A DNA stretch of 64,000 nt, from assembly GCF_041886205.1 (NCBI RefSeq), contig NZ_CP169029.1. The stretch is one strand, 5' to 3'. The position numbers are program-made. This DNA is from Escherichia coli. Its GTDB lineage: Bacteria; Pseudomonadota; Gammaproteobacteria; Enterobacterales; Enterobacteriaceae. Positions 51,701-54,700 of this stretch are shown here, piece by piece (position 1 is the first letter of the stretch; each line of letters begins with the position of its first letter).

Positions 51701-54700
51701 AGGGCTGTTTAGTCATCAGCGCTTTCTGACAGTGCTGAGATTTCAACCTGTTGCAGTAAAAATGAGTAGATATAAGGCAAGTGTGCTGCCAAACCCATCT
51801 TTTACGGGGTGAAGGTAGATTTCGTATGAAGGGTATTCGCTATTTCACTGAAGCCTGTTCCGTTCTTCCATAGTTCAAAAACAGAGGCTTTTTCCTCTGC
51901 TGTAAATGTTCGTCTCATTCAAAAAACCTCTGCAACCCCATGTTTTCACATAACTGTTGCGTTGACCAATTGAATCTACAACGGCTTTTTTTAATATGTC
52001 CCGTTCGTCGGTAACCCGCTTCAGCTCTTTCTGGAGACGGCGGATCTCGGCCTGAGCATCTGACTGTTCTTTATTAGTGGAAGAATCCGGACCGTACTTC
52101 TTTATCCAGGAGTAAAGGCTGTGGGTGGTGATATCGAGACGTGTTGCAACGCTGGCAACAGAATAACCGCGATCAACAACCTGTTTGACTGCTTCAATTT
52201 TAAACTCTTCGGGATAACGCTTACCGCTCATGGGCACCTCTCTTTAAGTCATCTTAAATGACTCTGAGGTGTCTATTAAACCTGTGGCGATTCATTCGTC
52301 TTGTTTATCAGGTTATTGATGATATGTTAATTATTGCGGTAGTCGCAGTAGGTAAACGTGAACGTAGCAACGTTTATCATCTCGCTAGTGAGCGGATGAA
52401 ATAATATCCCTGTCAGCACTCTTTTTTATCTGCTGCCGTTTTTTCCGGTGATTTTTTTCTGCATGCAGAAAAAAGCCTGCCCGGAGGGCAGGCATGAAAG
52501 ACAATCGCACAGTTAGTGTTGAAATTAATGATATCACGCATTATACCCGGTGGATACACAAACCATCCCATGTAAATGCACTGGCATCCTAATCTACGTC
52601 TGATAACAACTGCAATGGCTGGACCTGTGATTTAAGAGAAAGTTATTATGTTTATTGAATATAACCGAAGTGATAAATAAAAGTATTATCACCTGTAATA
52701 TTTATGCTTATTGCGTGGTTTTATCTGGTTATATAAAGCACAGATGTTCTCATTATTTTCTGAAAAATAACCATATGGATCGATTTCCCCCACCCAGCCG
52801 AAGCGGTTCGGCTCGTTCGGCGTGTCGTCGACACTGAAGCGCTTATCCACTTCGTTCCAGCGGTAAGAGTCGTCGCTGTCGCTGACGAATGCCATCGGGT
52901 CGCTAAACAGCGTGATCCGCCATGCGATCAAAAAGCGTAAGTGTTTCCGACAGACGAGCCGGTGAAAAAAGTGGTGTGTCTGGCAATACAGGCATCGTCC
53001 CCGAAATGGACGATGCCGTTGAAGGACTGGGGTATGGCAATAAGCCGCTTTATTATCGGATTCAGTGACCGCCTGGACGGTTACTTTTGAGAAAAGGCAT
53101 TTACACACAATCCTAAACAGACTCCTATATTTCAGATTTTGTTATCAACGCATTTCAAATCTCTTAGAAATCATTACTGTCGTCATATTTTCCGAGGCAG
53201 CTCACCACCTAACCATGTCTTATCAACAATATTTTGTGAAGGATATTTATAATGTAAAGACACATCAGAAACGATATTTCACACTCAACATGGCAGATGT
53301 ATTATGGTATCCATGTTCTCCAAGTTGAATGCCTGCATCAGCCCGGAATGCTACTTCTGGTGTTATCATTCCCACAACACCACCATTTATTTCTCCGATA
53401 TCACGCGCACCATCCTGGTATATACTTACACCATTCATACTGGTGCCGAAAACACGACTATTGTGCAACCAGTGTGCCTCCACAAATGGTCTGAACGGAA
53501 CCGCATACCGCGTATTTTTACCGTTTTTGCTGGTAAGCCATGTTCTTGCTCCCAGGCGGGTGAGAATATTTCCGTTACCGGTATTTTCAATACTGGTTCC
53601 GTTACTTTCATGATATTTGTCTGATTTTACATTCATCCGGACAACCTGAAGCTGCGGCTGAACATACCATTCATGACTTCCCTTGTAATTGTCGGTAAAC
53701 TCTCCAGCCTTCCATGAATATCCTGCTTCCAGAGATACCGTAAACCCTTTTGACTTCCATGACTCAGCAGGCAGCCGTTCTCCATTTATATGATTATCAA
53801 ACCAGCTGTATTGCAGCCAGCTATCAAGATAAGAACCATTGTGTGTTTCATCATTGGCATACCATGTTGCATAAAGACCCGCTGTGTATCCATTCATTCT
53901 TCCTTCCGAATGGTATCCGGTGCTCAGGGCATTCGTACTGTTATTATTATGACCATAGCCAGCCATCATACCTGTATGCCAGCGATCGGTAGCATTCAGG
54001 CTCCACTGAGCTATATCTCCCCCTATTAACACAACGTAGCTATTCCCCCGGGTTCTCAGCTGACTACTGTTGTCACGCCAGCGATTATGTTTTCCTTTAT
54101 TATACATCCAGATACCTGCTTCATTTTCTTCTCCTGTCATGTGGCTGATATACAACTCCTGTCCCTGTCGTTCATACAGATTCGTTACAAACAGATTATT
54201 TGCAGCAGCAATACTGGCAACATAGCTACCTGCCTCAGGACGCAAATTATTATCATGGTTTTCCGGTACAGCTTCAGGTTGTGGTACAGGAATGTCTTTT
54301 CTGCTAATCAGATACCAGTTAGTGCTGTTAATCCCCTGACCACGTTTCAGTATGTAATCATAAGCTCCGGCTGTAATACGTTCCGTCTGAATGAATTCAG
54401 CATTATCAGCATTGCCACTGACGTGAATCACTTCAATCCCATTAAGTGTCTCTGCACCAGTACCACCGGCCTGAGTAACAGCGACACGGGTACGGCCACT
54501 GGCATTACCTTTAATCACCAGACGATCTGTTTTCGAATTGTCACCACCTGTTTCTGTCTGGAGGAGAATAAGTCCATTTCTGCCAGTGTAATTCCCTCCG
54601 ACAGTCAGTATATTACCCGGCATATATGTAGTGAGATCGACTATACCACTATTGCTCAGATTTCCTGCAACGCCCCCAAACCCGGAGAGTTTGCCCTGCT

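What the first reader, a model, noticed from the sequence alone, without database searches (positions are those of the whole stretch)
52453..52595. 22-bp perfect palindrome followed by a GC hairpin and a 33-codon ORF
TTTTTTCTGCATGCAGAAAAAA (52453-52474) is a perfect palindrome, directly followed by the hairpin GCCTGCC-cggag-GGCAGGC (52475-52493) and then ATG at 52494 opening MKDNRTVSVEINDITHYTRWIHKPSHVNALAS. The pair could be a bidirectional terminator, a protein-binding site, or a leader structure for the short ORF.
Basis: seen in the sequence. Interest (0 to 1): 0.3.

Follow-up and report, generated by a model that had tools for sequence, protein, structure and literature searches.

The report
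Leftward-facing transcription terminator, plasmid-derived
The palindrome and GC hairpin are real, but they are best read as an ordinary Rho-independent terminator on the opposite (minus) strand, inherited from a plasmid backbone; the 33-codon ORF beside it is not a conserved gene.

Summary
The GC hairpin (52475-52493) is followed by T6 only on the minus strand. It is the best terminator-like site in the 19 kb scanned (8 pairs, 7 G-C, -15.5 kcal/mol). On the plus strand it is followed by AUGAAAG, so it is not bidirectional.

The "22-bp palindrome" is that terminator's T-tract, a 10-bp core and an opposing T-run. The core is not conserved as sequence: relatives carry CTGCATACAG, CTGTATGCAG, TGTGCACA or TGCGCA.

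The segment is plasmid-derived. It lies between a relE pseudogene cut by an IS and an aatA-like autotransporter gene. The same layout occurs in REL606 and BL21 and, with intact Phd/RelE, on IncF plasmids. IncK2/Z plasmids carry it 280-400 bp upstream of a fopA-like ProQ/FinO gene.

Stem and A-run are kept in the 23 of 25 sequence variants that still hold the whole hairpin. The loop varies and even flips (GGA/TCC).

The ORF is not conserved. Its ATG is ATA in 14 of 25 variants, and the two lineages read the same bases in different frames.

A weak promoter-like pair (TTGCAG-N18-TAGGAT) sits 92 nt upstream in both lineages, so a ~110-nt small RNA is possible but unproven. The finding is ordinary and of low interest.

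The parts
52475..52493 (-). Terminator stem-loop. On the minus strand it reads GCCUGCCC-UCC-GGGCAGGC: 8 pairs, 7 of them G-C, with a 3-nt loop.
   Evidence: top-ranked terminator-like site. Hairpin energy -15.5 kcal/mol. All 8 pairs are kept in 15 of 15 variants on the minus strand.
52469..52474 (-). U-tract of the terminator (T6 on the minus strand, A6 on the plus strand).
   Evidence: The run is 6-8 bases long in every variant that retains the hairpin.
52453..52474 (.). The 22-bp palindrome: T-run, CTGCATGCAG core and A-run. It can form a weak A-U hairpin (-6.2 kcal/mol). Its right third is the terminator's U-tract.
   Evidence: The core varies among relatives.
52494..52569 (-). Conserved non-coding block immediately upstream of the terminator on the minus strand, about 90-95% identical between IncF/aatA and IncK2/Z lineages. 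It would be the body of the candidate small RNA.
   Evidence: 1-nt indels and a frame switch argue against coding.
52586..52615 (-). Candidate sigma-70-like promoter on the minus strand: -35 TTGCAG (52615-52610), 18-nt spacer, -10 TAGGAT (52591-52586). The match is weak (7 of 12).
   Evidence: It is the only promoter-like arrangement at the same position in both lineages (TTGCAC-17-TACGAT in IncK), 91-92 nt before the hairpin. It falls below the threshold of the promoter scan.
52494..52592 (+).
52297..52404 (+). Context: 3' fragment of a RelE-family toxin pseudogene, cut by an IS3/IS911-family fragment (51875-52237, minus strand).
   Evidence: RefSeq annotation of identical DNA. The Phd/RelE pair is intact on plasmids.
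53265..56762 (-). Context: aatA-like autotransporter gene (3498 bp), the nearest upstream gene on the terminator's strand. Its stop codon lies 772 nt before the hairpin.
   Evidence: PMC2944236.

Best explanation
The GC hairpin plus the adjacent run of six A (T6 on the minus strand) is a Rho-independent terminator for leftward (minus-strand) transcription. It belongs to a roughly 230-bp non-coding segment of plasmid backbone. On plasmids this segment lies just beyond the toxin-antitoxin module downstream of an IncFII-type repA. It came into the chromosome with the aatA island.

Shown: the anatomy, the strand asymmetry, and conservation of stem and U-tract while the loop varies.

Inferred: in the window it stops any leftward transcripts before they run antisense into the relE remnant and IS fragment. 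These could be read-through from aatA, 772 nt upstream with no other minus-strand terminator-like site between, and/or a short transcript starting about 85 nt upstream. On plasmids the same site would shield the TA module and replication region.

The "palindrome" is a by-product. It is the terminator's T-tract facing a T-run on the other strand across a short hairpin-forming core. The 32-codon ORF is a chance open frame.
For: - **Anatomy.** The stem has 8 pairs, 7 of them G-C, with a 3-nt loop, followed by TTTTTT on the minus strand only. It is the top-scoring site in 19 kb. Hairpin energy is -15.5 kcal/mol.
- **No competing site.** No other minus-strand terminator-like site lies between the aatA stop (53265) and this hairpin.
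- **Conservation.** Among 25 distinct variants from E. coli chromosomes, IncF and IncK2/Z plasmids and metagenomes, the stem and the 6-8-base A-run are kept. The loop varies freely: GGA, TCC, ACC, GCA, TGT.
- **Strand.** The commonest allele, GCCTACCC-TGT-GGGCAGGC, gives a G.U pair on the minus-strand RNA (-13.5 kcal/mol) but an A.C mismatch on the plus strand (-8.8). The consensus fold of the alignment is -30.4 kcal/mol for the minus strand against -19.6 for the plus strand.
- **Independence from aatA.** In IncK2/Z plasmids there is no minus-strand gene upstream, yet the hairpin is perfect and carries U8.
- **ORF.** The ATG is ATA in 14 of 25 variants, and the frame differs between lineages.
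Against: - No transcript 3' end has been mapped, so function is inferred from sequence alone.
- The hairpin is 772 nt from the nearest upstream gene's stop codon, which is far for a gene terminator.
- The only conserved promoter-like site upstream is weak (7 of 12).
- Wobble-based strand evidence rests on one informative substitution in the GC stem. The G.U pattern in the A-U hairpin follows automatically from transitions in the unconstrained arm.
- Sequence diversity is low (mostly 90% identity or more), and no pair shows a compensatory double change.
- The segment sits in a decaying, IS-riddled island, so it may now be a relic with nothing to terminate.
Confidence: 0.78

Rival explanations
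1. The terminator closes a dedicated small-RNA gene of about 110 nt on the minus strand. Its parts would be a promoter at 52615-52586, a start near 52579, a body at 52569-52494 and the terminator at 52493-52469. It would be conserved on IncF and IncK2/Z plasmids. In IncK2/Z it lies divergent from, and upstream of, a fopA-like FinO-domain RNA chaperone gene, and might be a ligand or regulator of that system.
For: - The roughly 75-nt block upstream of the hairpin is the best-conserved part of the segment between lineages, and its 1-nt indels rule out coding.
- A promoter-like pair, TTGCA(G/C)-17/18-TA(G/C)GAT, is the only one at the same position in all nine loci tested, 91-92 nt before the hairpin. 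It sits within a stretch that is otherwise only about 60% identical.
- In IncK2/Z the terminator has at most about 400 bp of non-coding DNA upstream before the divergent fopA-like gene.
- FinO-domain proteins recognise terminator hairpins with U tails (PMC7491321; abstracts of PMC7367173 and PMC9674577).
Against: - The promoter match is weak (3 of 6 plus 4 of 6) and below the scan threshold.
- No Rfam family matches.
- No covariation supports a fold for the body; the covariation term is 0.05.
- No complementary target longer than 10 nt was found in the loci held.
- IncI-gamma/K1 fopA has no such element upstream.
- No expression data exist, and the sequence was not found in the literature.
Confidence: 0.2
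2. It is a bidirectional terminator serving both the Phd/RelE operon (plus strand) and leftward transcription.
For: It lies 48-70 nt after the relE stop codon. A T-run at 52452-52458 precedes the palindrome core, and a weak plus-strand candidate was flagged at 52434-52450.
Against: On the plus strand the GC hairpin is followed by AUGAAAG or AUAACAG, with no U-tract. The plus-strand candidate folds at only -3.5 kcal/mol and at 0.0 in the allele carried by plasmids with an intact relE. In that allele the GC stem has an A.C mismatch on the plus strand.
Confidence: 0.07
3. The palindrome is the operator for a dimeric DNA-binding protein, for example the TA antitoxin or a plasmid regulator.
For: It is a perfect 22-bp dyad, rare by chance (4 of 200 simulations).
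Against: The core sequence is not conserved: five different cores occur among relatives, and the single-base variants fall at loop positions. TA operators lie upstream of their operons, not downstream (established knowledge). Twelve of the 22 bases are homopolymer runs.
Confidence: 0.04
4. It is a single-strand initiation signal of the phage G4 type. A GC stem-loop followed on its 3' side by CTG on the minus strand would let primase start a rightward primer downstream of the plasmid origin.
For: In phage G4 the primer start is a CTG a few bases 3' of GC-rich stem-loop I (annotated primer 3970-3997). The minus strand here reads hairpin-TTTTTT-CTG, oriented away from repA.
Against: The CTG is absent in L010 (…TTTTTTTTAATGTG) and L034 (…TTTTTTTCATGCG), which keep the hairpin. 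No counterparts of G4 stem-loops II and III were seen. The site is 1.5-2.9 kb from repA. A CTG trinucleotide is expected by chance.
Confidence: 0.03
5. The 32-codon ORF encodes a small protein, and the hairpin is its leader or translational control element.
For: In the window allele, GGAGG in the hairpin loop and 3' arm lies 6 nt before the ATG. A frame of about 44 codons stays open in many relatives.
Against: The ATG is ATA in 14 of 25 variants. Alternative starts are inconsistent or absent (L029, L033, L034, L036). The flipped-loop allele loses the GGAGG. The IncK and aatA lineages translate the same nucleotides in different frames (YTRWIHKPS against FPGGYTNHP).
Confidence: 0.03

Closest known systems
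Canonical Rho-independent (intrinsic) terminators of E. coli
   Same: A GC-rich 8-bp stem, a short loop and an immediately following U-tract of 6-8. The stem and U-tract are conserved while the loop drifts.
   Different: It is not adjacent to a gene end: it lies 772 nt from the aatA stop, and in IncK2/Z plasmids there is no upstream gene at all. The U-tract can also pair with a downstream A-rich run to form a second, weak hairpin.
FinP / Inc-type plasmid antisense RNAs bound by FinO-domain proteins (FinO, FopA)
   Same: It is plasmid-borne and short (about 110 nt if real), ends in a strong terminator hairpin with a U tail, and in IncK2/Z lies next to a fopA/yafB-like FinO-domain gene (PMC7491321).
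   Different: No expression or binding data exist. It is not antisense to a known mRNA leader, shares no sequence with FinP or Inc, gives no Rfam hit, and is absent upstream of fopA on an IncI-gamma/K1 plasmid.
Bidirectional terminators between convergent genes
   Same: It lies between convergent transcription units (relE rightward, aatA leftward) and has T- and A-runs on either side of dyad symmetry.
   Different: The strong hairpin has a U-tract on one side only, and no competent plus-strand hairpin precedes the plus-strand T-run.

Membership tests
Rho-independent terminator (minus strand) | GC-rich stem-loop (stem of 5 or more bp, loop of 3-8 nt) | tested here: met
   8 pairs, 7 G-C, 3-nt loop, -15.5 kcal/mol.
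Rho-independent terminator (minus strand) | U-tract directly 3' of the stem | tested here: met
   T6 in the window and T6-T8 in all relatives that keep the hairpin.
Rho-independent terminator (minus strand) | Lies downstream of a transcription unit on the same strand | tested here: inconclusive
   aatA ends 772 nt upstream with no other minus-strand terminator-like site between. A weak conserved promoter-like site lies 92 nt upstream.
Rho-independent terminator (minus strand) | RNA 3' ends map in the U-tract, or read-through is reduced in vivo or in vitro | not testable with these tools
   No transcript data are available.
Bidirectional terminator | U-tract after the hairpin on both strands (an A-tract 5' and a U-tract 3') | tested here: not met
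   On the plus strand the hairpin is followed by AUGAAAGAC. The plus-strand alternative hairpin folds at -3.5 to 0.0 kcal/mol.
Small protein-coding gene | Conserved start codon and reading frame among relatives | tested here: not met
   ATA replaces ATG in 14 of 25 variants, and the frame switches between lineages.
Small regulatory RNA gene | Own promoter plus terminator bounding a conserved non-coding body | tested here: inconclusive
   The terminator and conserved body are present. The promoter match is only 7 of 12, although its position is conserved.
Small regulatory RNA gene | Match to a described RNA family | tested here: not met
   No Rfam hit in 52400-52650 at E-value up to 1, and none at gathering score.
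Small regulatory RNA gene | Detected transcript of defined size | not testable with these tools
   No expression data. A literature search for the sequence found nothing.
Palindromic operator / protein-binding site | Conserved dyad sequence among relatives | tested here: not met
   The core is variable (five forms); only the homopolymer runs are kept.
G4-type primase-dependent ssi | Conserved CTG start site 3' of stem-loop I, plus further stem-loops | tested here: not met
   CTG is present in the window but absent in L010 and L034. The G4 reference was checked.
Repetitive extragenic palindromes (REP/BIME-like) | Many dispersed copies per genome | tested here: not met
   One copy in the window. 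Median of 1 place per E. coli genome, present in 420-509 of 5426 genomes. No hits in species-representative genomes.

The most novel reading that the evidence does not exclude
The conserved block plus terminator is an undescribed plasmid small RNA of about 110 nt, transcribed leftward from a weak promoter at 52615-52586. Its native setting would be immediately upstream of, and divergent from, the fopA-like FinO-domain RNA chaperone gene of IncK2/Z plasmids. It would be a new FinP/Inc-style RNA partner or regulator, carried as an orphan copy next to aatA on IncF plasmids and in chromosomes such as BL21 and REL606.
Probability: 0.2. Interest if true: 0.45.

Novelty: new member of a known kind. 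Interest (0 to 1): 0.15.

Why it matters
As a terminator it matters little. It is an unannotated but ordinary signal, useful mainly for annotating the aatA island and the backbone region downstream of IncFII-type replicons, and for discarding a spurious small ORF (PGAP has called a 52-aa hypothetical protein across it in one plasmid). If the small-RNA reading were true, it would add a candidate RNA partner next to a FopA-type RNA chaperone gene. It could be tested easily, because the laboratory strains BL21 and REL606 carry the locus.

Tried and rejected
- **Rfam.** The 5-kb region at E-value up to 1 and the whole window at gathering score gave nothing at the locus.
- **Species-representative genomes.** A scan for the conserved 24-mer found 0 hits, so the element is confined to a narrow set of enterobacterial plasmids and islands.
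- **Literature.** A full-text search for the hairpin and block sequences found 0 papers. A search for G4-type ssi literature returned nothing usable.
- **Trans-target search.** I looked for complementarity between the candidate RNA body and the loci held. Only its own antisense strand and chance 9-10-mers came up.
- **fopA upstream region on an IncI-gamma/K1 plasmid.** It has no homologous element and no terminator, so the element is not a general feature of fopA genes.
- **G4-type primase site.** Rejected because the CTG is not conserved.
- **Wobble pattern in the A-U hairpin.** I first took it as evidence for selection on a minus-strand RNA hairpin. I rejected that: transitions in the unconstrained T-run automatically give G.U opposite the conserved U-tract.
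- **Minus-strand 52-aa ORF.** This is 52413-52571, annotated as a hypothetical protein in L004. I rejected it because it runs through both hairpins and its frame is not conserved.

Full report
**Observation**

The window reads TTTTTTCTGCATGCAGAAAAAA at 52453-52474, GCCTGCCCGGAGGGCAGGC at 52475-52493, and ATG at 52494 opening a 32-aa ORF that ends at 52592. The palindrome is the longest in the window. A perfect palindrome of that half-length arose in 4 of 200 Markov simulations. The hairpin pattern is unique in the window, against 0.01 expected.

**Context**

Identical DNA in RefSeq E. coli chromosomes is annotated as follows:
- an IS3/IS911 transposase fragment;
- a RelE-family toxin pseudogene lacking its N-terminus (window 52297-52404, plus strand);
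- an unannotated gap that holds the finding;
- an alkaline-phosphatase pseudogene fragment (52773-52886, minus strand);
- a frameshifted hypothetical pseudogene;
- a 1165-aa autotransporter gene (53265-56762, minus strand).

The autotransporter gene is 3498 bp long. The same arrangement is present in REL606 and BL21. This matches the published aatA locus, which is flanked by mobile elements in IMT5155, BL21 and REL606 and is plasmid-borne in APEC O1 (PMC2944236).

On IncF plasmids the order is repA, then intact Phd/RelE, then this segment, then aatA. The core of the segment also occurs on IncK2/Z plasmids. There it lies downstream of other toxin-antitoxin modules and 280-400 bp upstream of a ProQ/FinO-family gene. 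That gene is about 55% identical to yafB/fopA of IncI plasmids (PMC7491321).

The element is found in 420-509 of 5426 complete E. coli genomes, usually once per genome. It is found in none of the species-representative genomes.

**What the hairpin is**

The consensus scan calls a minus-strand terminator: GCCTGCCCTCCGGGCAGGC followed by TTTTTT, with 8 pairs of which 7 are G-C. It is the best of 30 terminator-like sites in 45000-64000. The hairpin folds at -15.5 kcal/mol.

On the plus strand the same hairpin is followed by ATGAAAGAC, so it lacks a U-tract. The only plus-strand candidate (52434-52450) folds at -3.5 kcal/mol. It folds at 0.0 in the allele carried by plasmids with an intact relE. 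The site is therefore unidirectional, not bidirectional.

**Comparative evidence**

I collected 25 distinct variants from annotated records and from 29 metagenome contigs.
- The stem and the 6-8-base A-run (the U-tract on the minus strand) are kept wherever the hairpin is intact.
- The loop varies: GGA, TCC, ACC, GCA and TGT.
- GGA and TCC are exact reverse complements, so the loop has flipped between near-identical relatives.
- The commonest allele (REL606, BL21 and most plasmids) is GCCTACCC-TGT-GGGCAGGC. This gives G.U on the minus-strand RNA (-13.5 kcal/mol) but A.C on the plus strand (-8.8).
- All 120 stem cells pair on the minus strand, against 116 on the plus strand.
- The alignment's consensus fold is -30.4 kcal/mol on the minus strand and -19.6 on the plus strand.

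This wobble evidence needs a caution. In the GC stem it rests on a single substitution. In the A-U hairpin it follows automatically from transitions in the unconstrained arm. The stronger argument for the minus strand is the one-sided, conserved U-tract. No pair shows a compensatory double change, because diversity is low.

**The palindrome**

Its right third is the terminator's U-tract and its left third is a T-run on the other strand. The 10-bp core is not conserved as sequence: relatives carry CTGCATACAG, CTGTATGCAG, TGTGCACA (L010) or TGCGCA (L034). The single-base variants fall in what would be the tetraloop.

This argues against a sequence-specific protein site. It fits a weak A-U hairpin (-6.2 kcal/mol) or simple inheritance. 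Short dyads next to a flipping hairpin loop also fit template-switch mutation at inverted repeats; that last point is my inference.

**The ORF**

The ATG is ATA in 14 of 25 variants, and four variants have no in-frame start at all. ORF lengths run from 18 to 73 codons. After a 1-nt indel the IncK lineage reads the conserved bases in another frame (FPGGYTNHP) than the aatA lineage (YTRWIHKPS). The SD-like GGAGG exists only in the GGA-loop allele. The ORF is not a gene. The 52-aa minus-strand ORF that PGAP called in one plasmid fails in the same way.

**What it terminates**

In the window, the nearest upstream unit on the minus strand is aatA. Its stop codon is 772 nt away, and no other minus-strand terminator-like site lies between.

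In IncK2/Z plasmids there is no upstream minus-strand gene, yet the hairpin is perfect and carries U8. Whatever it stops there must start within about 400 bp.

With relaxed criteria, only one promoter-like arrangement sits at the same position in all nine loci examined. It is TTGCA(G/C)-17/18-TA(G/C)GAT, ending 91-92 nt before the hairpin. It lies on a small island of conservation within otherwise diverged sequence. This would give an RNA of about 110 nt whose body is the best-conserved part of the segment.

The evidence for that RNA is thin:
- the promoter match is weak (7 of 12) and below the scan threshold;
- Rfam has no match;
- no fold is supported by covariation;
- no target complementarity was found;
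- an IncI-gamma/K1 fopA lacks the element.

I put this reading at about 0.2.

**Other readings rejected**

A G4-type primase start (stem-loop followed by CTG, checked against the phage G4 origin) fails because the CTG is absent in L010 and L034. REP-like repeats fail on copy number.

**Verdict**

This is an ordinary, unannotated Rho-independent terminator on the minus strand. It was inherited from a plasmid backbone segment and now lies between a relE remnant and the aatA island. The palindrome is largely its T-tract, and the ORF is spurious. Interest is low. The one reading worth a cheap experiment is the possible small RNA, which could be tested in BL21 or REL606.

Noticed in passing
window 52483-52485; L007, L030, L035 at the homologous position: The 3-nt loop of the GC hairpin is GGA in the window and IncK loci but TCC, its exact reverse complement, in close relatives with an unchanged stem. 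This is a small hairpin-loop inversion of the kind produced by template switching at inverted repeats.
   Followed up: partly
L003/L007, L004/L009, L010/L034 and L006, left of the element: Four unrelated type II toxin-antitoxin modules (Phd/RelE, RelE-like toxin with an HTH antitoxin, DUF1778/GNAT, CopG/RelE) occupy the same slot between an IncFII-type repA/ori and this element. This suggests a hot spot for swapping TA modules.
   Followed up: partly
L005, L006, L009, L010, L012 (element at about 3000-3660; ProQ/FinO gene 280-400 bp to the right): On IncK2/Z plasmids the element always lies upstream of a fopA/yafB-like FinO-domain gene, about 55% identical to the IncI homologues. In some of these plasmids that gene is followed by a UvrD-like helicase gene.
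   Followed up: partly
window 52670-52692: An inverted repeat, GTGATAA-N9-TTATCAC, in an AT-rich stretch resembles a Fur box by eye. It is conserved in the aatA lineage.
   Followed up: no
L005 and L012, immediately left of the T-run: A Tn3-family terminal inverted repeat (…CCGCCCCCTCCCGCAAACGACCCC) abuts the T-run of the palindrome, so a transposon has inserted exactly at the AT-rich dyad.
   Followed up: no
window 52773-53090: Two pseudogene scraps lie between the terminator and aatA: a PhoX-like alkaline phosphatase fragment on the minus strand and a frameshifted hypothetical on the plus strand. The plasmid copies carry them too, so they travelled with aatA.
   Followed up: no
window 49164-51397; 4312-4706, 7405-7477 and 61740-61811: Sucrose-utilisation genes (a cscK-like fructokinase and a cscB-like permease) lie just left of the IS fragment. 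The window also holds a cluster of four tRNA genes and two further tRNA genes.
   Followed up: no
window 52570: The window allele has one extra A (CCCATG) relative to all 20 other variants that cover the site. This insertion sets the 32-codon length of the ORF.
   Followed up: yes
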